The notes under the pieces were generated by a model, which was not told the DNA's origin, did no database searches, and saw nothing but the letters and a program-made list of their open reading frames with translations. DNA of 48,683 bases from Chitinophagales bacterium (GTDB taxonomy: Bacteria > Bacteroidota > Bacteroidia > Chitinophagales > UBA2359): assembly GCA_020631035.1 (NCBI GenBank), contig JAHDIA010000001.1, positions 1 through 48,683 on the forward strand, read 5' to 3'. Below, piece by piece: positions 2,824 to 42,550 of the stretch. A program made the translations under genes and the position numbers. The stretch's first letter is position 1. Every line of letters starts with the position of its first letter.

Positions 2824-2854
2824 TTGAATTATAACCTAAAAGGATATATATTTG
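2824..2854 (+). promoter_or_regulatory. Bacteroidota-type promoter for the rightward early gene
   Basis: TTG (2824-2826), 20-nt spacer, TAtaTTTG (2847-2854). Followed by tandem taacga repeats (2861-2875) and GTTAACAA (2883-2890) before the ATG at 2892. Confidence 0.5.
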
Positions 2855-2891
2855 TAATCGTAACGATAACGATAATAACAAAGTTAACAAA

Positions 2892-3113
2892 ATGGACCAT
2901 AACACAAACACTCAAATACCCAACGCAAGGAATGTTCGAAATAAGGCGAAATTAGTATTGTTCACTCAAGAAGAATTGGATAGGATTAATTCTGCAAAAG
3001 AAAAGAAAGGGTACAAGGCTTTTGCCTCTTATATACGTGCAATGACCTTGCATTGTTCAGATTTGATTTTGGCAGAAGAACAATCCTTCTCCCAAATCCC
3101 ACAAACAGGATAG
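2892..3113 (+). CDS. small Cro-like/RHH-like regulator candidate, divergent from the repressor
   Basis: 73-aa ORF divergently placed from the CI-like gene. The FTQEELDRINSAKEKKGYKAFASYIRAM segment resembles ribbon-helix-helix proteins. Confidence 0.45.
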   Translation: MDHNTNTQIPNARNVRNKAKLVLFTQEELDRINSAKEKKGYKAFASYIRAMTLHCSDLILAEEQSFSQIPQTG

Positions 3114-3147
3114 ATTCATAAAGTTGTTGTTAACAGGTTAATGGATA

Positions 3148-3261
3148 ACTCTTGTAGCTCAATAGGCAGAGCCGTTTTGGTAAGTGTCTCAACCCACCCA
3201 CAGTTCCACTTATACCTTATCACTGCCAAGAAAGATGTCGGTTCGAGTCCGACCAAGAGTT
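3148..3261 (+). tRNA. tRNA-like RNA 1 (114 nt) with expanded anticodon arm and no recognisable anticodon
   Basis: Acceptor actcttg (3148-3154) / caagagt (3254-3260). D arm gctc-aataggca-gagc. T arm gtcgg-ttcgagt-ccgac (3237-3253). Long stem ttggtaagtg (3177-3186) / cactgccaa (3221-3229) closes a 34-nt G-poor loop. Confidence 0.5.
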
Positions 3262-3304
3262 CAAAAAAACCAACCGTAATACTGACAGCGTTTGACGCAT
3301 TCCT

Positions 3305-3446
3305 TTGGAATTAGGATTTAGTCAGGGATTTAAGCGGCGATGGTTGCAAGAGGCGAAGGAAGCTCGCCAGTTTCTATCTTGCAGAATTGGAAGAGGCATA
3401 GAGTACTCGCATGGTCGCCGAGCAGGTTCAACTCCTGCCTTCCAAT
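3305..3446 (+). tRNA. tRNA-like RNA 2 (about 142 nt) with a very large insertion in the anticodon-arm position
   Basis: T arm gcagg-ttcaact-cctgc (3422-3438). 3' acceptor cttccaa (3439-3445) pairs with ttggaa(t) at 3305-3311. A 'ta' connector and weak D arm follow. Stem cggcga (3335-3340) / tcgccg (3415-3420) encloses nested hairpins (ttgcaag 3344-3350 / cttgcag 3378-3384; ggcga 3352-3356 / tcgcc 3364-3368). The 5' boundary is uncertain. Confidence 0.35.
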
Positions 3447-3463
3447 CAACCTTATATAGAAAA

Positions 3464-3491
3464 GAGCCAGATGGGCTCAGTTAATTTTTTA
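3464..3491 (+). terminator. hairpin + T-run after tRNA-like RNA 2
   Basis: Stem gagcc / ggctc around a short loop, followed by agttaatttttt. Confidence 0.35.
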
Positions 3492-3539
3492 GAATTCTGC
3501 GGCTGGTTAGCGAGCTGGTCGAGAGTAGTTGTTTTTCTA

Positions 3540-3642
3540 ACCTTCATAGCTTAAAGGTCAGAGCATTGTCAGGATATTTCCATGGAGCGCAATCATCCAT
3601 TCCATACTGGCAAGGGTAGCGGTTCGAGTCCGCTTGAAGGTT
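3540..3642 (+). tRNA. tRNA-like RNA 3 (103 nt): canonical cloverleaf geometry but a 38-nt 'anticodon loop'
   Basis: Acceptor accttca (3540-3546) / tgaaggt (3635-3641). 'ta' connector. D arm gctt-aaaggtca-gagc. Anticodon-type stem ttgtc (3566-3570) / ggcaa (3609-3613). 4-nt variable region. T arm agcgg-ttcgagt-ccgct (3618-3634). No split of the 38-nt loop yields a U33-containing 7-nt loop. Confidence 0.5.
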
Positions 3643-3676
3643 CTAGCATTATTGTTTACCACAACATTTTTTCATT

Positions 3677-3892
3677 ATGAATGACATAGATTTTTTCGAG
3701 AGTTACGATAAGTACACATCAGATCTCTTGCATGAAATAAAGAAGGGGATTGGCGAGGATGATTACGAAGAGTTTGATGTACGAGAATACTCTCCAGCAA
3801 GCAAACAAGCCAAAGCCAATGAAAAGCTCAATCCTAGAAACAGCGGACGTATTCTTACAGCTGCTCAAATTCCTTCTACTAATGCAGCCTAA
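3677..3892 (+). CDS. hypothetical acidic protein
   Basis: 71-aa ATG ORF preceded by the leader variant tttaccacaaca. Confidence 0.45.
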   Translation: MNDIDFFESYDKYTSDLLHEIKKGIGEDDYEEFDVREYSPASKQAKANEKLNPRNSGRILTAAQIPSTNAA

Positions 3893-12949: not shown

Positions 12950-13279
12950 GTGGCACGGACGAGCAAAATCAAAAAAGCTGATGTGCTGAAGGCGGTCAAA
13001 GGATCAAGTGGCAATGTCTCTCTAATTAGAGACAGACTTGGATTGAAGGATTGGACCTCCGCCAAAAAGCACATTGAAAAATACGCTGAGACCAAGCAAG
13101 CATTCGAGGATGAACAGCAAATCATCCTCGATCTTGCAGAGCATCAGCTCAAGAAGAAAATACAATCTGGCGAGCCTTGGGCAATCAAATACTATTTGAG
13201 TCGAAAAGGCAAGCCAAGAGGATACGGAGATGAGATGAAAGTTGTCTCCGAAAATTACGAAATCATCATTGAAGGATAA
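12950..13279 (+). CDS. TerS-like helix-turn-helix protein immediately upstream of TerL
   Basis: GTG start preceded by aaggagg. The C-terminal ...EPWAIKYYLSRKGKPRGY resembles the conserved tail of small terminase/HTH proteins. Its stop overlaps the terL start (taATG). Confidence 0.4.
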   Translation: MARTSKIKKADVLKAVKGSSGNVSLIRDRLGLKDWTSAKKHIEKYAETKQAFEDEQQIILDLAEHQLKKKIQSGEPWAIKYYLSRKGKPRGYGDEMKVVSENYEIIIEG

Positions 13280-14664
13280 TGGTCAAAACCCGAAGGAGAA
13301 AAATACGTTACAATCCCAACTACTGGGATTACCAAGAAGATGTCGCCGAAGGGCATCCTGACAAGAAGTACATCATTGTCAAAAAAGGGAGACGTGTTGG
13401 AATCACCACTGGCATGTCTAAGAGTTATATCAAAACAGGATTACAGCAAAGACCCTTGGTTGAAAAAGGACTTCTTTCGACAGTATCTCCACTCCTTTGG
13501 GTTGACACTATTCATGCAAATATCGACCGATATTTTGAGCGCATGTTTTTGCCAGTACTTAGCAAATTACCAAAAAAACTCTGGCACTGGTCTGCTCAAA
13601 AAAAGCAACTGACGCTCAATGGGACATTCATAGACTTTCGCTCTGCTGACCGTCCTGAAAATATTGAAGGCTTCGGATATAGGAAAATCTTCCTCAATGA
13701 AGCAGGAATCATCCTCAAAAATAATTACCTATACGAGAACGCAATTCTCCCAATGCTTCTGGACTATCCAGATAGCCAACTAATCGCAGCAGGAACACCA
13801 AAAGGAAAACGCCACAAAGGCGAGGACCACAAATTTTGGCAGCTTTGGAAAAAGGTAATGGCAAAATCTCCGCAATATTGGGGAATAACGCTTCCAACAT
13901 CGGTTCGGCTGCATACCAATCCAGCAATTACTCAAGCCGAGCTTGATGATATGCGTTCAAATATGAGCAGACTAGCAGCCAAGCAAGAGCTTAACGGAGA
14001 GTTTGTCGAATATGCATCAAACTTATGGGTACAATCGATGTACTCAGAAGATGTTAGAAAGAAAATCCTCACCAAAGGACTAGGGTTTGACCCAACACTT
14101 CCCATCTACCTGTCTTTTGACTTCAACAAGGCACCTGTGACTTGCCTTGCTACACAATGCCCAAAGTCAAAATTGTATTACGGCAACGCCATCAGGCACT
14201 TCAAGGAATTCAGGGAGGAGCGCATATCAATTGACAAACTATGCAGAATAATAGATAATTACTTTGCCTCTCCAATTAGAAATCCAAAAGGAATTCCACG
14301 CATCTATTACATCACAGGAGACGCCTCTGGTCACAGCAGTGATGATCCATTGCACGGAGTTTTTGTGAATCACTATCAAACCATTCAGAGAGTACTGAAA
14401 GTTGGTAGCGGCATGTTCAAAGTGCCAAAAAGAAATCCACGTCTACATGCATCAAGGCAGCAGGTAGACAACATTTTCGAGAACCATCCTGACATCCTCA
14501 TTGACGAGCAAAATTGTCCATTTCTCATAGATGACCTCCTAACCGTACAAGCAAATGAGAAGGGGGAAATTGACAAGAAAAAGGACGCTGCCAAAGCGCA
14601 TTTGATTGATTGTATTAGATACTATTACTCAACCTTTGAACCAAAATATTTGCAGCACTTATAG
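13279..14664 (+). CDS. terL: terminase large subunit
   Basis: ATPase-like VKKGRRVGITTG (Walker A-like) and KIFLNEAG (Walker B-like). Nuclease-half acidic motifs YLSFDFN, ITGDASG, AHLIDCIRYY. Confidence 0.8.
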   Translation: MVKTRRRKIRYNPNYWDYQEDVAEGHPDKKYIIVKKGRRVGITTGMSKSYIKTGLQQRPLVEKGLLSTVSPLLWVDTIHANIDRYFERMFLPVLSKLPKKLWHWSAQKKQLTLNGTFIDFRSADRPENIEGFGYRKIFLNEAGIILKNNYLYENAILPMLLDYPDSQLIAAGTPKGKRHKGEDHKFWQLWKKVMAKSPQYWGITLPTSVRLHTNPAITQAELDDMRSNMSRLAAKQELNGEFVEYASNLWVQSMYSEDVRKKILTKGLGFDPTLPIYLSFDFNKAPVTCLATQCPKSKLYYGNAIRHFKEFREERISIDKLCRIIDNYFASPIRNPKGIPRIYYITGDASGHSSDDPLHGVFVNHYQTIQRVLKVGSGMFKVPKRNPRLHASRQQVDNIFENHPDILIDEQNCPFLIDDLLTVQANEKGEIDKKKDAAKAHLIDCIRYYYSTFEPKYLQHL

Positions 14665-14702
14665 AAAAAACAGAAATTTGACCAACAAAAAAGCAAGAAT
14701 GA

Positions 14703-15197
14703 ATGAAAAAGCTCACACCAAAACAGGATAGGTTTTGTAATGAGTATCTGGTGGATCTCAATTACACTCAAGCTGCAATCCGAGCAGGATACTCAAAAAA
14801 AACCGCTGGCTCAATCGGTTCTGAAAACCTGAAAAAACCTGAAATCAAAAAAAGAATAGAGCATTTGCGAAAAGATCAGATTGAGCGCATTCAAATGACC
14901 GCTGACGATGTCCTAATGGAGCTTTTCATACTCGCCAAAGCCAATATTGGAGACTTCTTTGAGGAAGGGGAGAATGGAGAGATGGAGTTCAAGGATTTCT
15001 CAGATATAACAGAGCGTCAATGGAGTACAGTCAACCAGGTTCACGCAAAGTATGGTGAAGGCGGTGTAGTTGTGGAAATCAAACTCAAGCAATACGACAG
15101 AGTTCGAGTTATCGAGCTAATCGGCAAGCACCTTGCAATGTGGCAGAACAGACTGCAAATAGACCTCAATGACTTTGACATTGAAATTGAAGGATGA
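14703..15197 (+). CDS. terS: terminase small subunit (Terminase_2-type)
   Basis: N-terminus LTPKQDRFCNEYLVDLNYTQAAIRAGYSKKTAGSIGSENLKKPEIKKRIE matches the family signature. Confidence 0.8.
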   Translation: MKKLTPKQDRFCNEYLVDLNYTQAAIRAGYSKKTAGSIGSENLKKPEIKKRIEHLRKDQIERIQMTADDVLMELFILAKANIGDFFEEGENGEMEFKDFSDITERQWSTVNQVHAKYGEGGVVVEIKLKQYDRVRVIELIGKHLAMWQNRLQIDLNDFDIEIEG

Positions 15198-15219
15198 TCC
15201 CCTTTTATCCATACATTTT

Positions 15220-15240
15220 TTCATACTACTTTAGTATGAA
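15220..15240 (+). terminator. perfect 9-bp hairpin after terS
   Basis: Stem ttcatacta / tagtatgaa with loop ctt. No T-run. Confidence 0.35.
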
Positions 15241-15651
15241 ATAGAATAGAATCCCATCCCGCCATCGACAACAAATTGAAACAAAAACAAATATAAATAC
15301 GTACCATACAACGGAACAACGTTAAGAAAGGATTTTTGCAGTTTACATTGATATTTGAGCCGTTCACGAATATAAATTTCAATAACATTGAATATAATCT
15401 ATATTTGTCTCGGCTTGCATAACTAACATCCTTTGTTAGAATGTATAACTATATCCAAGCAAGATCACCACCCGATTTACCGCCGATAAAATTACCTTTT
15501 TCTTCCCAGTATATTCCTATGCACCCTGCTGAAGAAAAAGGCAGGAGTATTGTGATGTCTAGGTGCTGCTAGATTGCAAGCCCAAAGCAGCCCAAGCAAA
15601 ACAAACTCCTGCTAATTCTTATTATCCTCAAAACCTACAAAACAAACAATT

Positions 15652-15930
15652 ATGAGTATCAACAACGGTGAACTCTCTGCCCAAGAGGAGCGAGTCATCC
15701 TCCTAATGAGGCAGACAAAGCTCAATCCCGAACCCTTATTTGAAATGTACGATTTGGCATGTTGCCCATCCATACTTTTCCAAAAAATGGCTTTCTGGAT
15801 GTGCTACAATTATGCTATATTATTGGAAATCAATAAGGAATTAACAGACGAAAATCAGTCTGTTGACCTTAATGATGTATGGCTTCTTCATCAGCTTGGA
15901 GAGAAGCTTGAAAAATTCAAAATTGATTAG
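15652..15930 (+). CDS. hypothetical protein
   Basis: 92-aa ATG ORF convergent with the integrase gene. Confidence 0.45.
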   Translation: MSINNGELSAQEERVILLMRQTKLNPEPLFEMYDLACCPSILFQKMAFWMCYNYAILLEINKELTDENQSVDLNDVWLLHQLGEKLEKFKID

Positions 15931-15984
15931 ATTATTCTAATATACGTAATTTTTGCAGGATGGTATACATCCGTCCTGCAAAAG

Positions 15985-17223
15985 TTATGCATCAATATCA
16001 TCAATCGCCCTACTTATATCCTTTCCTTCAAGACCAATATATCTGTAAGTTGACTTCTCATCACTCTTGCCTAGCAGGTACATCACCTGAAGAATTGATC
16101 CTGTTTTGTCATACACCAATCTCCCATATGTCCTGCGAAAAGTGTGAGCTGTACACCTCTCCCATTTCTTGAATTTGTCAGTATACAATGTCGCTCCACT
16201 CATCCAGTTTTTTTCCATATCCTTGTCAATTCCAGCTTTCTTGCAAAGGTTCTTGCTTAACCTGTTGAACACCTGCCCTACTGGAACACTATATCCAGTG
16301 CCTTCAAAATCCCTTATCAAATCAACTGCCCTTTGACTCACTGGAAGCCACTCGTATGTTTTCTTTTTGGGAATGTAGATTTGGTGCCAAAACTTCCCAT
16401 TATTTCGCTTTTCGATTCCACCTGAATTGTAAGCCTCAAGGTCGCTATACCTAAGACCAGTTAGGCATAGAAATCGAATCAACATTTTGATGTAATTTTC
16501 AGAGTCAGTTTGAGGATTGTATTTTTTGATTAGATTTATTTCCTCTTGTCTTAGAAAGACAACTGGCGGCTCAATGATTTGAAGATTCAATTTGTATTTG
16601 AATTCATCTTTTCTGTATCCTTGGTCAATTGTCCAATTAAGAAAAGTCTTGAGGTCTTTGAAAATCCTTGTTTGAATTGTGGAATTATTCAATTTTTGTT
16701 GGAAGCAGTGCTTGAGTAATTCATTGCAATACTTACTTCCAAGGTTTTGTATTTTTGGATTAAGTCCAAGCTCCCTAATGTGACCCAAGGTTGTCTTGTA
16801 TCCCTTGACGGTCCTTGAGTCTTTGACCCGATGCCCGCCTTCATGACTCTCTGCAAGGAACTCCTCAAAGCAGCTTATGAGCTTGATGCTATTTTTGATA
16901 TGCCTTGACTTTTGCTCATCATTGAGGCTTGAAATCTCGTACAAGTATTTGATGTTTTCGCCCGACAAATCTCCATTGTGCTGTCTTACCATAATGATTA
17001 TTTTTTCAATGTCTGCTTTGATTTTTTTGATCAAGTCATTGTACTCTTTCGACTTCCTATACTTGGGAGAGACCAATTGTTTTGCAGATGAGAAAAACCT
17101 CGCTGGCACCTTCAGTCCAGTTGAGAATTTTGTTGTCTTGCCATTATGATTGTAGTTGATGTAGATCGTACAACCATCTTTGGTCTTTCTTTTCTCGTAT
17201 ATACGAGCTTTGAGCGTTGCCAT
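15985..17223 (-). CDS. int: tyrosine recombinase / phage integrase
   Basis: Bacteroidota-type N-terminus (ATLKARIYEKRKTKDG...YINYNHNGK). Catalytic-region motifs LTGLRYSDL, HTFRRTYG and ...KSTYRYI. Confidence 0.9.
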   Translation of the reverse strand: MATLKARIYEKRKTKDGCTIYINYNHNGKTTKFSTGLKVPARFFSSAKQLVSPKYRKSKEYNDLIKKIKADIEKIIIMVRQHNGDLSGENIKYLYEISSLNDEQKSRHIKNSIKLISCFEEFLAESHEGGHRVKDSRTVKGYKTTLGHIRELGLNPKIQNLGSKYCNELLKHCFQQKLNNSTIQTRIFKDLKTFLNWTIDQGYRKDEFKYKLNLQIIEPPVVFLRQEEINLIKKYNPQTDSENYIKMLIRFLCLTGLRYSDLEAYNSGGIEKRNNGKFWHQIYIPKKKTYEWLPVSQRAVDLIRDFEGTGYSVPVGQVFNRLSKNLCKKAGIDKDMEKNWMSGATLYTDKFKKWERCTAHTFRRTYGRLVYDKTGSILQVMYLLGKSDEKSTYRYIGLEGKDISRAIDDIDA

Positions 17224-18350: not shown

Positions 18351-21300
18351 ATGGCGGTAATTCTGGAGGACATATACAGGCTGGACGTAGAGGTCGGAAG
18401 CGATGAGGAGATTATCAAGCTCATCGGTGATGTCGAGCGTCTGAAAAAAGAGCTCGATGGACTTGGTAAGTTCAAAGGCCCAAACTCTGACAAGGTTAGC
18501 CAGCTTGCAAGGGAAGAGAAGAAGCTCGAAGCTGCCCTTTCCCAGCAAGTCAAGACAATGGATGGTCTTGCCAGAAAAGAAAAAGTTCTCGAAGCCAATA
18601 GGGGGAGGCTTGCCAAAGGGACTGCTATCTACGAAAAAAATGAGAGTCGCCTCAGAGTAGTTCAGGCTCAAAGGAAGCGGACGGTTGATGCTCTTGGGAA
18701 ATCTGAGAAGCGACTTGGCGAACAAGCAAAAAAAACAGGAGATGCCTTGAAAAAGCAAGGCACTCAGCTCACTTCATTTCAAAAAACCTTGTCGAGCGGA
18801 ATCAAGGCTCTTCAAGGTTATTTTGCTGTTTCAATAATCACTGACTGGGGTAAGGAGTTTTTTGATACTGCGCAGCAAATACAAGGCACGCTTGGGAAAA
18901 CCGAGCGTGTCTTTGGTGAGTTCACAGGCAAGGTTCAGGACTATGCCAAGCAAAACGCCAATGACATCGGACTCACCGCATTGGAGTTTGAGGCACTCGC
19001 CGCTCAAACCCAAGACTTACTTGTTCCAATTGGCTTTGACAGGGGAGATGCTACTGACATCACACTTCAGCTTCAAGGCTTGTCGGGCGCACTGGCTGAA
19101 TGGTCCAATGGGCAGGTTGATGCATCACAGACCTCCGAAATTCTCACCAAGGCATTGCTTGGAGAGCGTGAGCAGCTCAAAACACTCGGCATCGCCATCA
19201 ATGAGGCAGATGTCAAGCAGCGTCTATTGGACAAGGGGCAATCAAAGCTGACAGGCAATGCTGAGAAGCAGGCACGGGCAATTGCTACCCTTGAATTGAT
19301 TTATGAAAAGTCAACTGATGCACAGGAGGCATTCAGAACGGGAGGGGAGAGCCTGGAGAGACAGAGTGCAAGGAATGCGGCACGTATGCGTGAACTCGGG
19401 GAAAGCATATCAAAACTTCTTACTCCTGCTTTTGCAGCAGCTTTAGGGCTTGCAGACTCTCTACTTACCCGCCTGAAAGGATTTGAAGGCTTGACAATTG
19501 ACGATAATAACAGTGCCTTGAAGCAAGCTGAAAACCTCAAAAAAATACGGGAGCAATTGCCCGACCTTATCGCCCAATATGAAACACTTTCACAGAAGAC
19601 CACCAAAACCACAGAGGAACAAAAACAGCTTGATAAAGTAATAGGGCAAATTTCGCAACGTGTCCCAACGGTAGAAATTACCCAAAGGGGCGATCTTGGG
19701 AATTTAGCCATTGATATTGCCAGTGTAAATACTGAACTCGAAAAACTGGAGCGGGCAAATTTGGACAACCTCAATTCAAGCGTCAATGATCTACAAATTG
19801 CCTTTTCTGAGTCACTGAATAAATTAAAGGAGAACGAAGCACAGTTTCAAGAAATCGAAAAGCGGGCAAATAGAACGACCTTTCAAAAGATTTTTTCTTT
19901 TGACTTTGACGAAATCCCAGACTCATTTCTTGACGATTATTTTGGTGCATTTTCGGGGGGCGATGGTGTCTCCATTAGTGAACTTTTTGAAGCTCCAGAC
20001 TTTGAAACATATGCGAAATCTGTTGGTAAAATTCGGGGCGAAATTTCAAACACTTCAAACCAAATTAAGGATGAGTTGTCAGAGATCGTTGCTCAACTTC
20101 TTAAGAGTGGTGTGGAGCTGACAGAAGACCAAAAAAGATTTATTCGTGTTATTGCAACTGATGCAGAAAATGGAAAAGGCAAGAATGCTTTTGACTTATT
20201 GGGTAGTAGCGCAAGTGATTCACAAGACTTTGTCGAAGGCTCCCTTCGCTTCTTCAGAAACGAAGTCTCTAAACTTGAGCAGCAGCTGCAAAACACCAAT
20301 CTGGAAGAAGAAAAGGCAATCAATATCGCAAAAAATCTCGAAATTGCAACAAAGCAGCTCACTGAAGCAGAGGAGAAATACCGCAAACTCAAAGGAGAGA
20401 CCAAAATTCAGACGCTAGACCTAAGAATTGAAAAAACCAAGCAGGAGCGTGAGGAGCTTGTCAGACTACTCGGCACCGCAGAGGGACTTGAGGAGATTAG
20501 CAAGAAGTACGAGGTCGAAATTGACATAGCACAGGAAACCGCTCTTGAAAAAATCACTGAGTTTGACGCTCAAATCAGTGAACTTGAAAACAAAAAAATA
20601 GAGGTCGAACTCTCCATTCTTCAGCAAGGAGAGCTCAATCTTGAAACGCTGCCAAGGATAATTGAAATCCAGACAGAAAAGCTCAAAGACCTTACTCTTA
20701 CAGAAGAGCAAAGAGGGGCAATTACCAACCAACTAAGCGCATACCAAAGAGAGCTGAACCGTCAGCAGCAGGAGTACAACGAGCAGCTTGAAAGAACGAA
20801 AATCCTTTCATCTGATATTGAAAAACTGCAAGGGAGGCAGGTCACTGGGACCTTCTCCCTTATCAGTGAGGATGGCTTCACAAAATCCGATGTTGACAAT
20901 GCAATCGCATCAATTGAAAATCAAATTAAGGAAATCCGCTTCACAGGCGATGCCTCCCTTGACGTTGAAGCAAGATTGAAAAAAGAGCAATTTGAAAAAG
21001 AGGTGGAAAACCTCAAACAGTTAGCACAGCGTGTTTTTGGAGAGGTTGAAATTCCAATTAAGCCATCAATTGATTATGAAGGAATCGAACCTCTCAACTC
21101 CAAGACGGGAGCCGCAGGCATTCAAAAATTCTTTCAAGACATTGTCGACTCTGAACTTTTTGAGATAGTTGAGCAAATTGATGATGTTGCTCGCTCTATC
21201 AAAAATGTGTACGCCACTCTTGAGGAAGGTCAAAAAGAAAGAATAGCAGCACAAGAGCGAACTGTTGACAAGATTACCCAAATTGCTGATGAGGGCAATG

Positions 21301-22427
21301 CCGAGCTTCTTGAGTCTGAGCAGGACAAACTACTCAAGCTTGAAGAGGAGAGAAGAAAGTCCGTTCAGAGGCAAAGAGCACTTGACTTGATTGCAGCGGC
21401 ATCAAATATTGTTGTTGCAGTAAGCAAGACAGCAGCGGAGTCGGGCGTTTTGTCTCCAGCTTTCATTGCAACAACCCTTGCAGCAATTGGAGCGGGCATA
21501 AGTGCGGGACTCTCAATTACTTCTAGCATACCTGGAGCAGCAGTTGGAGAAGAAAATATTAATGCTCCAGGAACAGAGACAAGCGACAGCGCACTTAGAA
21601 GAGTCTCAAAGGGAGAGCGCATTGTCACTGCAAAAGCAAATCGGGAGTATTGGGACACGCTTCACGCCATCCATACTGGCAAGGTGCCAGCAGACATCAT
21701 CAACGATTTTGTCAAACTTGGAAGTTGGAAACAAAAGCCTGCAAAAGAGGCTGTTCCTGCTCAAGCATCCAATCAAAGTTTTGTTGAGAAAATACTGGAA
21801 AGAGTTGTCTCTCGTGAGGTACTTGAACAAAAGGAAGTTAAGCAATTACTTAACTCTGAATCAGTCAAAAACACACTGCTTTCATCTCTGTATGATAGAA
21901 GCCTTAGAGAGGAAAAGTCTGATGTTTCAAGTATTTCTCAAGTTGTCAACTACAAAGACATCAAAGAGAAAATAGAATCTCACGTTCAGAGCCTACTCAG
22001 GGATAGGGTTTCAAAAGAGGTACAAACAAGCAGAGGTCAAATATCCAATAATTATTTCTATGATGGTTCACCAGTAGTCAGTCCTGCTCCAGCAGTCCAA
22101 AGCGCAGCAAAAAGTGCAACTGAGGCATTTGCCCAGTATTGGTCGCAAAATGTCCAAGGGATTGGACAGCAGCAATTACAGACAAATCAATTCATTTCCA
22201 TTGCTGCTCCTGCTGCTATGAATCCTCCTTCTATTGATACATCAAAACTTGAAAAAAAGTTTGATAGGCTGGCAAATGAGATGCAGCGGATGCGAAGTGA
22301 AATGTCCAATCTTCATCAGCAGATTCCAAAAACGAATGTACGAGTCAATATGGACAAAAAAGGAGTAGCGGCTATGGTTCAGCAGGAGGTTCAAAAGCAA
22401 ATCAACATCGAAAGGAGGGCAAAGTAA
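18351..22427 (+). CDS. tail tape measure protein
   Basis: 1358 aa, long coiled-coil. N-terminal TMP-core-like ...DYAKQNANDIGLTALEFEALAAQTQDLLVPIGF...LTKALLGEREQLKTLGIAI. Hydrophobic segment AAIGAGISAGLSITSS. The track start at 18273 is GTG, so the ATG at 18351 (MAVILEDIY) was chosen. Confidence 0.85.
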   Translation: MAVILEDIYRLDVEVGSDEEIIKLIGDVERLKKELDGLGKFKGPNSDKVSQLAREEKKLEAALSQQVKTMDGLARKEKVLEANRGRLAKGTAIYEKNESRLRVVQAQRKRTVDALGKSEKRLGEQAKKTGDALKKQGTQLTSFQKTLSSGIKALQGYFAVSIITDWGKEFFDTAQQIQGTLGKTERVFGEFTGKVQDYAKQNANDIGLTALEFEALAAQTQDLLVPIGFDRGDATDITLQLQGLSGALAEWSNGQVDASQTSEILTKALLGEREQLKTLGIAINEADVKQRLLDKGQSKLTGNAEKQARAIATLELIYEKSTDAQEAFRTGGESLERQSARNAARMRELGESISKLLTPAFAAALGLADSLLTRLKGFEGLTIDDNNSALKQAENLKKIREQLPDLIAQYETLSQKTTKTTEEQKQLDKVIGQISQRVPTVEITQRGDLGNLAIDIASVNTELEKLERANLDNLNSSVNDLQIAFSESLNKLKENEAQFQEIEKRANRTTFQKIFSFDFDEIPDSFLDDYFGAFSGGDGVSISELFEAPDFETYAKSVGKIRGEISNTSNQIKDELSEIVAQLLKSGVELTEDQKRFIRVIATDAENGKGKNAFDLLGSSASDSQDFVEGSLRFFRNEVSKLEQQLQNTNLEEEKAINIAKNLEIATKQLTEAEEKYRKLKGETKIQTLDLRIEKTKQEREELVRLLGTAEGLEEISKKYEVEIDIAQETALEKITEFDAQISELENKKIEVELSILQQGELNLETLPRIIEIQTEKLKDLTLTEEQRGAITNQLSAYQRELNRQQQEYNEQLERTKILSSDIEKLQGRQVTGTFSLISEDGFTKSDVDNAIASIENQIKEIRFTGDASLDVEARLKKEQFEKEVENLKQLAQRVFGEVEIPIKPSIDYEGIEPLNSKTGAAGIQKFFQDIVDSELFEIVEQIDDVARSIKNVYATLEEGQKERIAAQERTVDKITQIADEGNAELLESEQDKLLKLEEERRKSVQRQRALDLIAAASNIVVAVSKTAAESGVLSPAFIATTLAAIGAGISAGLSITSSIPGAAVGEENINAPGTETSDSALRRVSKGERIVTAKANREYWDTLHAIHTGKVPADIINDFVKLGSWKQKPAKEAVPAQASNQSFVEKILERVVSREVLEQKEVKQLLNSESVKNTLLSSLYDRSLREEKSDVSSISQVVNYKDIKEKIESHVQSLLRDRVSKEVQTSRGQISNNYFYDGSPVVSPAPAVQSAAKSATEAFAQYWSQNVQGIGQQQLQTNQFISIAAPAAMNPPSIDTSKLEKKFDRLANEMQRMRSEMSNLHQQIPKTNVRVNMDKKGVAAMVQQEVQKQINIERRAK

Positions 22428-42310: not shown

Positions 42311-42550
42311 ATGTTTGATTTGAAGGAAGTGATAAGGTACAAAGGGATGTATTGGGACAAATTACAGGAAGGATACACTGACCGAAAGCAAGCGTATTAC
42401 GACCTAGTTTGTGACATAGAATCAAACTGGGATGAGCTTCAAGACGGAGGCGTTGTGAGAAAACCAAATACTGCCGAAAGGTTGAAATACTTCAGAGAGG
42501 GGAGAGATAGAAATTACCTAATTGAAATCACAAAAATTCAAGACAAATGA
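42311..42550 (+). CDS. hypothetical protein
   Basis: ATG at 42311 (MFDLKEVIRYKG). The track ORF begins at GTG 42248, inside the repeat cluster. Confidence 0.45.
   Translation: MFDLKEVIRYKGMYWDKLQEGYTDRKQAYYDLVCDIESNWDELQDGGVVRKPNTAERLKYFREGRDRNYLIEITKIQDK

What the first reader, a model, noticed from the sequence alone, without database searches (positions are those of the whole stretch)
3148..3642. Three tandem tRNA-like RNAs with canonical acceptor, D and T arms but no anticodon loop
Seen directly: three same-strand elements (3148-3261, about 3305-3446, 3540-3642) fill the 563-bp gap after the Cro-like gene.

Shared features:
- Each has a 7-bp (element 2: 6-bp) acceptor helix.
- Each has the 'TA' 8-9 connector and a GG-containing D arm.
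- Each has a textbook T arm (GGTTCGAGTCC in elements 1 and 3, GGTTCAACTCC in element 2).
- Each has a T discriminator and no encoded CCA.

The anticodon position is where they diverge from tRNAs:
- The anticodon stem closes a 34-38-nt loop in elements 1 and 3, and a 74-nt nested-hairpin insertion in element 2.
- For element 3, whose geometry is otherwise perfectly canonical, I tried every way of splitting the 38 nt into a 7-nt loop plus intron. None gives U33 with a purine at position 37.
- They therefore do not look like ordinary intron-containing tRNAs, and the insertions are far too short for bacterial group I introns.

Inference (untested): these could be a phage-encoded family of tRNA mimics. 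Possible roles are decoys for anticodon-nuclease or tRNA-targeting defences, RNase P/Z processing punctuation, or substrates or sponges for CCA-adding or modification enzymes.
Basis: partly seen in the sequence, partly recalled or inferred. Interest (0 to 1): 0.78.

Follow-up and report, generated by a model that had tools for sequence, protein, structure and literature searches.

The report
Anticodon-less tRNA-shaped RNAs in a phage
Just after the lysis/lysogeny switch, an orphan temperate phage carries two near-perfect tRNA bodies and one acceptor/T-arm mini-helix, none with a usable anticodon loop, so they are probably tRNA look-alikes rather than working tRNAs, and their function remains untested.

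Summary
Elements 1 (3148-3261) and 3 (3540-3642) pass Rfam's tRNA model (41.4 and 46.4 bits; cut-off 29). In both, the model skips the whole anticodon arm, which is replaced by a 6-8-bp stem closing a 34-45-nt irregular insert.

Element 2 is weaker. Only a 59-61-nt acceptor/T-arm mini-helix (3386-3447) is supported. It is preceded by two partial duplications of its 5' part.

A T-arm-plus-acceptor scan finds exactly these three sites in the window, against 0.04 expected in shuffles. No single excision restores a canonical anticodon arm. No group I intron, tmRNA or YrlA signal was found, and no RNA-splicing enzyme domain was found among the ORFs scanned.

The phage is an orphan with no relatives in any collection, so covariation could not be tested.

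A truncated IMG/VR scan found at least 100 tRNA-shaped genes with 20-50-nt inserts. These include a new 'CAGCAA' intron family that does restore perfect anticodon arms. The window's inserts do not belong to it.

Best reading (about 0.4): these are non-decoding tRNA-derived RNAs, cut from the early transcript by RNase P and RNase Z. Rivals are unconventional-intron tRNAs and decaying relics.

The parts
2824..2854 (+). Promoter-like site for the rightward early transcript. A Bacteroidota-type -7 box TATATTTG lies at 2847-2854. A divergent -7 box TAACTTTG lies at 2879-2886 on the minus strand.
   Evidence: No TAnnTTTG box occurs on the + strand between 3100 and 3680, so the elements are inferred to be co-transcribed from here.
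2892..3113 (+). Small 73-aa ORF at the Cro position, immediately upstream of the elements.
   Evidence: It has no Pfam or PHROG family. 'Cro-like' is by position only.
3148..3261 (+). Element 1, a tRNA body. Acceptor 3148-3154/3254-3260; D arm 3157-3172; T arm 3237-3253; discriminator U at 3261. The anticodon arm is replaced by the stem 3175-3182/3224-3231, which closes 41 nt.
   Evidence: RF00005 41.4 bits, E 4.6e-8; cloverleaf minimum-energy fold; strict scanner.
3183..3223 (+). Insert of element 1. It has an inner helix TAAGTG/CACTTA, a C/A-rich 20-nt loop, short tandem duplications (CCCAC-CCAC; CTTATAC-CTTATCAC), and an orphan heptamer CTTATAC that looks like an anticodon loop.
   Evidence: No excision restores a canonical arm.
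3305..3385 (+). Upstream part of element 2. It holds two degenerate copies of the 5' acceptor-like unit (TTGGAAT at 3305, TTGCAAG at 3344) and the hairpin GGCGA-AGGAAGC-TCGCC at 3352-3368.
   Evidence: Direct repeat D1, 71% identity over 24 nt. The hairpin appears.
3386..3447 (+). Element 2 core, a mini tRNA-like helix. The 8-bp acceptor is ATTGGAAG/CTTCCAAT and the T arm is GCAGG-TTCAACT-CCTGC. It has no D arm or anticodon arm.
   Evidence: tRNA-Sec 15.6 bits, E 0.9; T-arm plus 7/7 acceptor scan; ARAGORN in mitochondrial-tRNA mode (-mt).
3464..3490 (.). Terminator-like hairpin GAGCC-AGATG-GGCTC with T runs on both strands, between elements 2 and 3.
3540..3642 (+). Element 3, a tRNA body. Acceptor 3540-3546/3635-3641; D arm 3549-3564; T arm 3618-3634; discriminator U at 3642. 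The anticodon arm is replaced by the 7-bp stem 3566-3572/3607-3613, which closes 34 nt.
   Evidence: RF00005 46.4 bits, E 1.8e-9; cloverleaf minimum-energy fold; strict scanner.
3573..3606 (+). Insert of element 3. It has an inner hairpin ATGGA-GCGCAATCA-TCCAT and a TCCAT-TCCAT duplication.
   Evidence: There is no solution with U33 and a purine at 37.
3677..3892 (+). First downstream early ORF (71 aa). It starts 34 nt after element 3.
   Evidence: It has no family hit.

Best explanation
The three elements are tRNA-derived RNAs that do not decode.

**Proposed pathway**
1. They are transcribed with the small ORF 2892-3113 from the Bacteroidota-type early promoter at about 2847.
2. Each folds into the tRNA elbow and acceptor shape.
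3. Each is therefore cut at its 5' end by RNase P and after U73 by RNase Z or exonucleases, and then receives CCA.
4. These cuts release stable RNAs of about 60-115 nt. They also sever the upstream ORF's mRNA from the downstream early genes.

**Why they cannot decode.** The anticodon arm is replaced by a 6-8-bp stem carrying a unique 34-45-nt module, so they cannot read codons.

**Likely role.** The most likely use is as tRNA look-alikes or tRNA-scaffolded cargo RNAs made at the very start of lytic growth. They could occupy proteins that recognise the tRNA body or the CCA end, or they could display the inserted module.

**Shown:** tRNA-body identity, absence of a canonical anticodon arm, and position in the early operon.

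**Inferred:** co-transcription, processing, CCA addition and the ultimate role.
For: - RF00005 hits at 41.4 and 46.4 bits, with the anticodon arm skipped by a local end.
- In elements 1 and 3 all 16 acceptor, D and T stem pairs are intact. U8, A14, G18, G19, A21, Y48, G53, T54, T55, C56, R57, A58 and C61 are all present.
- All the change is concentrated in the anticodon arm. This pattern is expected if the body is under selection and the arm is not.
- Three such sites lie on one strand within 500 bp, against 0.04 expected by chance.
- No canonical arm can be restored by any single excision.
- True phage tRNA introns in the same survey do restore perfect arms.
- There is no Bacteroidota -7 box (TAnnTTTG) inside the gap, and a good one upstream at 2847.
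- The rest of the genome is tightly packed, so 563 bp of junk would be unusual.
- Other tRNA-shaped genes that stand alone and have no recoverable anticodon arm recur in viral contigs. One family is conserved and shows covarying helices.
Against: - No homologue exists, so there is no covariation, no conservation and no expression data.
- Element 2 is untidy, with an internal duplication.
- The inserts carry short tandem duplications and orphan anticodon-loop-like heptamers. Both features also fit decay.
- A terminator-like hairpin lies between elements 2 and 3, which complicates simple co-transcription.
- No partner protein, target or defence system was identified. Complementarity to the rest of the phage is at chance level.
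Confidence: 0.4

Rival explanations
1. The elements are real tRNA genes interrupted by unconventional short introns, like the 'enigmatic' phage tRNA introns. An unknown host or phage pathway splices them into decoding tRNAs, possibly with more than one excision per gene.
For: - Lak megaphages carry tRNAs with 79-114-nt introns of unknown mechanism.
- My IMG/VR scan found at least 100 insert-bearing tRNA-shaped genes, many clearly spliceable.
- The window's inserts contain heptamers that look like anticodon loops: CTTATAC, CTGCCAA, TTTCCAT and CTGGCAA.
- ARAGORN in intron mode proposes Ile and Ser models.
- Element 2 resembles the 'hairpin plus nested mini-tRNA' layout of the Lak introns.
Against: - No single excision gives a 5-bp stem, U33 and a purine at 37 in canonical geometry.
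- The heptamers have no flanking stems, or lie too close to the T stem.
- The covariance model built from the CAGCAA intron family finds nothing in 3100-3700.
- No RNA ligase or splicing endonuclease domain was found in 40 ORFs scanned.
- The phage has no ordinary tRNA.
- The ARAGORN models need A34 or lack nucleotide 26.
Confidence: 0.2
2. The elements are decaying relics of former phage tRNA genes. Slippage duplications and insertions destroyed the anticodon arms, and the remnants are now functionless.
For: - Short tandem duplications occur in all three inserts, and element 2 has a 43-nt unit duplication.
- Orphan anticodon-loop heptamers are present. CTTATAC is the loop of phage tRNA-Ile(UAU), and one such tRNA (L045) shares element 1's acceptor 5' strand.
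- Element 2 lacks a credible D arm.
- There is no evidence of conservation.
Against: - There is not one broken pair in 32 acceptor, D and T stem pairs of elements 1 and 3, and all tertiary nucleotides are kept. Meanwhile the anticodon region has undergone several events.
- The closing stems are lengthened to 6-8 bp rather than eroded.
- Phage genomes rarely keep 0.5 kb of junk in an early operon.
Confidence: 0.2
3. The region acts mainly in cis on the early operon. The tRNA-like folds and the hairpin at 3464-3478 would work as processing, stability, termination or antitermination signals between the switch gene and the delayed-early genes. The released RNAs would be by-products.
For: - The position is equivalent to nutR/tR1 of lambdoid phages (established knowledge).
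- A terminator-like hairpin lies inside the gap.
- The elements sit 34 nt after the upstream stop codon and 34 nt before the next start codon.
- No internal promoter box was found.
Against: - One minimal RNase P/Z substrate would be enough for this role. Three different elements with full D arms and tertiary nucleotides are more than punctuation needs.
- No known antitermination RNA is tRNA-shaped, and Rfam gives no match.
Confidence: 0.12

Closest known systems
Intron-containing tRNA genes of Lak megaphages of Prevotella (Devoto et al. 2019, PMC6784885)
   Same: - These are phage tRNA genes with short, non-group-I insertions in the anticodon region.
- The excision mechanism is unknown.
- Rfam finds nothing in the inserts.
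- The Lak introns contain a hairpin plus a nested mini tRNA-like unit (8-bp acceptor plus T arm), much like window element 2.
- The window's host is inferred to be Bacteroidota, the phylum of Prevotella, from the integrase arm domain and promoter boxes.
   Different: - The Lak introns sit inside an otherwise canonical anticodon loop and leave a normal tRNA after removal.
- They occur in large tRNA arrays of 500-kb lytic phages.
- The window's elements have no recoverable anticodon arm and stand alone in a 48.7-kb temperate phage.
'CAGCAA' intron family found here in IMG/VR phage tRNA arrays (for example L062:6628-6745, L008:1052-1166). I found no publication describing it.
   Same: The genes have the same overall look: a tRNA body plus a 39-50-nt insert between the D and T arms. 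They are often in tandem.
   Different: - The intron lies at tRNA position 28/29 or 29/30.
- It has an invariant CAGCA motif and a 7-bp hairpin in which every pair shows compensatory changes.
- Its removal restores a perfect 5-bp stem, U33 and a purine at 37, with many different anticodons.
- The covariance model built from it finds nothing in the window's gap.
Bacterial Y RNA-like YrlA (a tRNA mimic bound by Rsr/Ro60). This comparison rests on my own knowledge.
   Same: It is a non-decoding RNA that keeps tRNA-like D, T and acceptor features. Some copies are phage-encoded.
   Different: - In YrlA the RNA ends lie on the anticodon side and the acceptor-like stem is closed by a loop. Here the ends are at the acceptor stem, as in real tRNAs.
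- No Rfam match to YrlA or Y RNA was found.
tRNA-like domain of tmRNA
   Same: The acceptor and T arm are retained, and the anticodon arm is replaced by other RNA.
   Different: - There is no G3:U70 alanine identity pair, no tag reading frame and no pseudoknots.
- ARAGORN in tmRNA mode and Rfam find nothing.
- A full D arm is present in elements 1 and 3.
The tRNA-like-plus-hairpin RNAs (TMERs) of murine gammaherpesvirus 68 (MHV68), and engineered 'tRNA scaffold' RNAs (Ponchon and Dardel). This comparison rests on my own knowledge.
   Same: A tRNA body serves as a processing and stability handle for a non-tRNA cargo. In the engineered scaffold the cargo replaces the anticodon loop on a lengthened anticodon stem, which is the geometry of elements 1 and 3.
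   Different: These are eukaryotic-virus or artificial systems. No natural bacterial or phage example is known to me, and the cargo function here is unknown.

Membership tests
tRNA (Rfam RF00005) | Covariance-model score at or above the gathering cut-off (29 bits) | tested here: met
   Element 1 scores 41.4 bits and element 3 scores 46.4 bits. Element 2 gives no RF00005 hit. Whole-window scans missed all three because of the speed filters.
tRNA (Rfam RF00005) | 7-bp acceptor helix, D arm with A14/G18/G19/A21, and T arm GTTCRANYC with a 5-bp stem | tested here: met
   Met for elements 1 and 3. Element 2 has only the T arm and an acceptor helix.
tRNA (functional decoder) | 5-bp anticodon stem closing a 7-nt loop with U33 and a purine at 37, either directly or after removal of one intron | tested here: not met
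   Default ARAGORN finds 0 tRNAs. The exhaustive single-excision search gives no solution for elements 1 or 3. The covariance-model alignments skip the arm.
tRNA with group I intron | Group I ribozyme core (more than about 200 nt) in the anticodon loop | tested here: not met
   The inserts are 34-45 nt. No Rfam intron match appears at E up to 10.
tRNA with archaeal/eukaryal-type intron | Bulge-helix-bulge motif at the splice sites, and a splicing endonuclease and ligase available | tested here: inconclusive
   No bulge-helix-bulge motif is evident by eye in the folds, but I made no formal search. No endonuclease or ligase domain was found in 40 ORFs scanned. The host is unknown.
   Covariance model R1 (built from alignment A2) gives no hit in 3100-3700 at E up to 10 with filters off. 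Pairwise similarity of element 3's insert to family members reaches only z = 2.2-3.3.
Lak-type nested tRNA-like intron | Hairpin plus A/T linker plus mini tRNA-like unit (8-bp acceptor, T arm), inserted in the anticodon loop of a host tRNA | tested here: inconclusive
   Element 2 has the hairpin (3352-3368), a 17-nt linker and the mini tRNA-like unit (3386-3447). It is not nested in a tRNA, and I built no model.
tmRNA | tRNA-like domain with G3:U70, plus a tag-peptide reading frame | tested here: not met
   ARAGORN in tmRNA mode finds 0. Rfam finds none. The 3:70 pairs are U-A and C-G.
YrlA / bacterial Y RNA | Rfam model match, with the RNA termini on the Ro-binding stem opposite the tRNA-like module | tested here: not met
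   No match appears in any E-value scan. The termini are at the acceptor stem.

The most novel reading that the evidence does not exclude
Phages widely encode tRNA-shaped RNAs whose anticodon arm has been swapped for a cargo module. In this temperate phage three of them would be made immediately after the genetic switch. They would act as decoys or sponges for host factors or defence nucleases that recognise the tRNA body or CCA end, or as naturally tRNA-scaffolded regulatory RNAs. This would be a natural counterpart of the engineered tRNA scaffold and a new class of phage non-coding effector.
Probability: 0.2. Interest if true: 0.85.

Novelty: new variant of a known kind. Interest (0 to 1): 0.6.

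Why it matters
tRNAs are a main battleground between phages and bacterial immunity, and phage tRNA genes are usually read simply as decoders. tRNA bodies that cannot decode, yet are kept intact and expressed first, would point to a different use of the tRNA shape: mimicry, titration, or a processing and stability handle for cargo RNA.

There is also a practical lesson. Standard pipelines miss these genes. Default ARAGORN found none, and Rfam scans of the whole window at the gathering threshold and of an 801-nt region at E up to 10 both missed them because of speed filters. So the phenomenon is probably much under-counted.

Tried and rejected
**Searches for homologues (all negative)**
- blastn and megablast against INPHARED phages.
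- An exact 22-mer in IMG/VR.
- Relatives of the neighbouring proteins in IMG/VR and in GTDB genomes.
- An exact-protein look-up, which returned only a 1.8-kb Logan contig 100% identical to the window.
- A search of the 5.8-billion-protein collection with the 107-aa HTH_17 (helix-turn-helix) protein, which returned only itself.
- A metagenome pattern combining the D arm, a gap and the T arm. It gave 6 loci, none related.
- Large terminase subunit (TerL) identity to known phages is only 21-40%.

**Intron solutions**
- The ARAGORN intron models are rejected. They need A34 with an extra nucleotide at position 26, or they lack nucleotide 26 and add a 24-nt 'variable arm'.
- Single-excision solutions allowing 4/5 stem pairs give only a 2-nt variable loop for element 1.
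- Two-intron readings around CTTATAC and TTTCCAT follow no consistent rule.

**Membership of the CAGCAA intron family.** Rejected by the covariance model.

**Base-pairing targets of the inserts within the phage.**
- Complementary matches of 11-13 nt occur at chance frequency.
- The 12-mer complement at 42328 lies inside a coding ORF.

**A shared partner gene next to stand-alone tRNA-like genes in IMG/VR.** None was found beyond synteny within single families.

**GOLLD, ROOL and other large-RNA readings.** Rfam gives no match.

**A fourth GGTTCGATTCC motif at 21081 (minus strand).** It lies inside a coding region and has no acceptor pairing.
Full report
**Context.** The window looks like a complete temperate phage.
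- A helix-turn-helix/S24-type repressor (2099-about 2794, minus strand; phrog_4) faces a rightward operon that begins with a 73-aa ORF (2892-3113).
- Downstream lie a helix-turn-helix (HTH_17) protein, an ERF recombinase, an HNH endonuclease, two DNA methyltransferases, the large and small terminase subunits (TerL, TerS), and a tyrosine integrase with the Arm-DNA-bind_5 domain that I know mainly from Bacteroidota integrases. Mostly unannotatable structural genes follow.
- The divergent control region carries Bacteroidota-type -7 boxes (TAnnTTTG) at 2847-2854 (+) and 2879-2886 (-).
- The 'Cro-like' ORF has no Pfam or PHROG hit, so that label rests on position only.
- The gap 3114-3676 is 563 bp.

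- Default ARAGORN finds no tRNA in the window.
- Rfam at the gathering threshold finds nothing. An 801-nt E-value scan found only weak unrelated matches.
- That negative result was a filter artefact. When each element was searched in a window of about 120 nt, the Rfam tRNA model RF00005 scored 46.4 bits (E 1.8e-9) on 3540-3642 and 41.4 bits (E 4.6e-8) on 3148-3261, against a gathering score of 29.
- In both alignments the model uses a local end that skips the anticodon arm. In element 3, 11 model positions are replaced by 42 nt. In element 1, 18 positions are replaced by 60 nt.
- RNAfold gives cloverleaf bodies for both as the minimum-energy structure.
- Both have 7/7 Watson-Crick acceptor pairs, a 4-bp D stem, a 5-bp T stem and every canonical tertiary nucleotide: U8, A14, G18, G19, A21, Y48, G53, T54, T55, C56, R57, A58 and C61. 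Both have a U discriminator and no encoded CCA.
- My strict cloverleaf-body scanner finds exactly these two sites on either strand of the window, and none in 200 dinucleotide shuffles.

**Element 2 is different.**
- RF00005 does not hit it. The only match is a weak tRNA-Sec alignment (15.6 bits, E 0.9) on 3386-3446.
- A scan for a T arm plus 7/7 acceptor finds three sites in the window, all on the + strand and all inside the gap: 3148-3260, 3387-3445 and 3540-3641. The expectation from 300 shuffles is 0.04, and no shuffle had three.
- The acceptor that passes for element 2 belongs to a 59-61-nt mini-helix: ATTGGAAG/CTTCCAAT plus the T arm GCAGG-TTCAACT-CCTGC.
- The upstream part contains a 71%-identical tandem duplication (3344-3367 versus 3387-3410) and a third TTGGAAT at 3305.
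- Element 2 is therefore a mini tRNA-like unit preceded by two degenerate copies of its own 5' part and by a hairpin (3352-3368).

**Is there a hidden anticodon?**
- ARAGORN in intron mode forces element 1 into tRNA-Ile(AAT) with a 40-nt intron, and element 3 into tRNA-Ser(GGA) with a 12-nt intron plus a 24-nt variable arm. Both models need non-canonical junctions.
- I wrote an exhaustive solver. It removes every possible single segment between the D and T arms and asks for a 5-bp stem, a 7-nt loop with U33 and a purine at 37, and a variable loop of 3-6 nt.
- The solver finds no solution for element 3.
- For element 1 the only solution has 4/5 stem pairs and a 2-nt variable loop.
- The inserts do contain heptamers that look like anticodon loops: CTTATAC and CTGCCAA in element 1, TTTCCAT and CTGGCAA in element 3. 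These have no flanking stems, or they lie only 4-7 nt from the T stem.
- The inserts also carry short tandem duplications: CCCAC-CCAC, CTTATAC-CTTATCAC and TCCAT-TCCAT.

**Comparative evidence.** None could be obtained, because the phage is an orphan.
- No DNA match in INPHARED.
- No relatives of three neighbouring proteins in IMG/VR or GTDB genomes.
- The only other contig is a 1.8-kb Logan fragment 100% identical to the window.
- The 107-aa neighbouring protein has only itself among 5.8 billion proteins.
- A metagenome pattern scan returned nothing related.

**The wider class.** I scanned IMG/VR for a D arm, a 46-76-nt gap and a T arm.
- 100 of 126 matches had an acceptor helix (at least 6 of 7 pairs) and a T stem (at least 4 of 5 pairs).
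- Some are eukaryote-type tRNA-Tyr genes with introns at 37/38, probably from giant viruses. Some are class II tRNAs.
- One large group shares an invariant CAGCA motif. For 19 such genes (18 of them aligned) my solver restores a perfect anticodon arm by removing an intron of about 39-50 nt at tRNA position 28/29 or 29/30, inside the 5' strand of the anticodon stem. For most of them that solution is unique.
- Removal yields Thr, Asp, Asn, Ser, Val, Pro, Ala, Gln and other anticodons.
- The intron's hairpin has 7 pairs, each with compensatory changes.
- Rfam's tRNA model scores these genes at 47-53 bits.
- I found no paper describing this family.
- The nearest published precedent is the 'enigmatic' introns of Lak megaphages. 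Their published sequences show a hairpin plus a nested mini tRNA-like unit. That layout resembles element 2.
- A covariance model built from the CAGCAA family finds nothing in 3100-3700 with filters off. The window's inserts are therefore not members.
- The sequence resemblance of element 3's insert to that family is weak (z = 2.2-3.3).

**Insert-bearing genes with no recoverable anticodon arm.**
- About half of the tRNA-shaped genes in the sample (53 of 103) have no solution under my strict rule.
- Many of these stand alone, with no ordinary tRNA nearby.
- One such family (L015, L025 and others) is syntenic across diverged contigs. It sits next to what look, by eye and without a family search, like tail-module genes.
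- That family shows two helices with compensatory changes, AGACC/GGTCT to TGGTC/GACCA and CCAG/CTGG to CCGC/GCGG, arranged in pseudoknot order.
- Non-canonical tRNA-shaped RNAs that appear to be under selection therefore exist in phages. This makes a functional reading of the window's elements plausible. It does not prove it.

**What it most likely is.** I favour non-decoding tRNA-derived RNAs (about 0.4).
- The argument from the sequence is that the bodies of elements 1 and 3 are flawless, while several independent events have remodelled only the anticodon arm. In both elements the closing stem has been lengthened rather than eroded.
- Neutral decay should also have hit some of the 32 acceptor, D and T stem pairs.
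- There is no Bacteroidota promoter box inside the gap. This places the elements on the early rightward transcript, although a terminator-like hairpin at 3464-3478 may separate element 3.
- From established knowledge of tRNA maturation, such folds should be cut by RNase P and RNase Z and should receive CCA. That step is inference.
- What the released RNAs then do (decoy, sponge or scaffolded cargo) is open. I found no target by complementarity and no partner gene.

**Rivals.**
- Unconventional-intron tRNAs, about 0.2.
- Relics of former tRNA genes, about 0.2. This is supported by the duplications, the orphan heptamers and the untidiness of element 2.
- A mainly cis-acting processing or termination role, about 0.12.

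**Verdict.** This is a real and unusual feature that standard tools miss. It is a new variant within the poorly understood set of phage tRNA genes with short insertions. Its function is unproven because no relatives or expression data exist. Interest 0.6.

Noticed in passing
IMG/VR loci, e.g. L062:6628-6745, L062:6304-6422, L008:1052-1166, L005:2407-2520, L050:10274-10648, L080 (several), L099:5792-5909: A family of phage tRNA genes carries an intron of about 39-50 nt inside the 5' strand of the anticodon stem (position 28/29 or 29/30). The intron has an invariant CAGCA(A) motif and a 7-bp hairpin in which every pair shows compensatory changes. Removing it restores perfect anticodon arms for many isotypes. 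The genes often occur in tandem within tRNA arrays. I found no publication on it.
   Followed up: partly
IMG/VR loci L015, L025 (8390-8495), L033, L056, L061, L074, L084, L091, L115, L118, L049, L112: A conserved tRNA-shaped gene stands alone next to what look, by eye, like tail-module genes. It has no canonical anticodon arm. It has two covarying helices in pseudoknot order and a loop reading CUUCAAA or CUUUAAA, which resembles a stop-codon anticodon loop.
   Followed up: partly
window 3148-3261 and 3540-3642: Rfam scans of the whole window (gathering threshold) and of an 801-nt region (E up to 10) both missed two tRNA-model hits of 41 and 46 bits. The hits appear only when about 120 nt is searched at a time. 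The speed filters hide insert-bearing tRNAs.
   Followed up: yes
IMG/VR loci L002/L035, L066, L068, L073, L079, L102: The inserts of some phage tRNA-shaped genes contain a second, nested T-arm-like motif (GGTTCGAGTCC and variants). This echoes the nested tRNA-like introns reported for Lak megaphages.
   Followed up: no
window 3464-3490: A terminator-like hairpin GAGCC-AGATG-GGCTC, with T runs on both strands, lies between elements 2 and 3.
   Followed up: no
window 2856-2880: A tandem ACGATA-type repeat (CGTAACGATAACGATAATAAC) lies between the two divergent -7 promoter boxes. It may be an operator for the repressor or for the small ORF's product.
   Followed up: no
window 3601-3615 and 21670-21684: A 15-nt exact direct repeat TCCATACTGGCAAGG links the 3' side of element 3's insert and closing stem to a site inside the 1384-aa ORF. 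About 0.05 such repeats are expected by chance, by my own extrapolation from the 13-mer expectation.
   Followed up: no
window 3122-3131 and 3524-3533: A similar leader motif AGT(T/A)GTTGTT lies 17 nt upstream of element 1 and 7 nt upstream of element 3. Element 1's copy overlaps TAAAGTTG, which is one mismatch from the Bacteroidota -7 box.
   Followed up: no
window 13279-17223: The gene order is unusual. The large terminase subunit (13279-14664) precedes the small subunit (14703-15197). A minus-strand integrase (15985-17223) follows, sitting between the packaging genes and the structural genes.
   Followed up: no
L045:13628-13701: A normal phage tRNA-Ile(UAU) shares element 1's acceptor 5' strand ACTCTTG and the start of its variable loop (AGAT). 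Element 1's insert contains the tRNA-Ile(UAU)-type loop heptamer CTTATAC. This may hint at the ancestry of element 1.
   Followed up: partly
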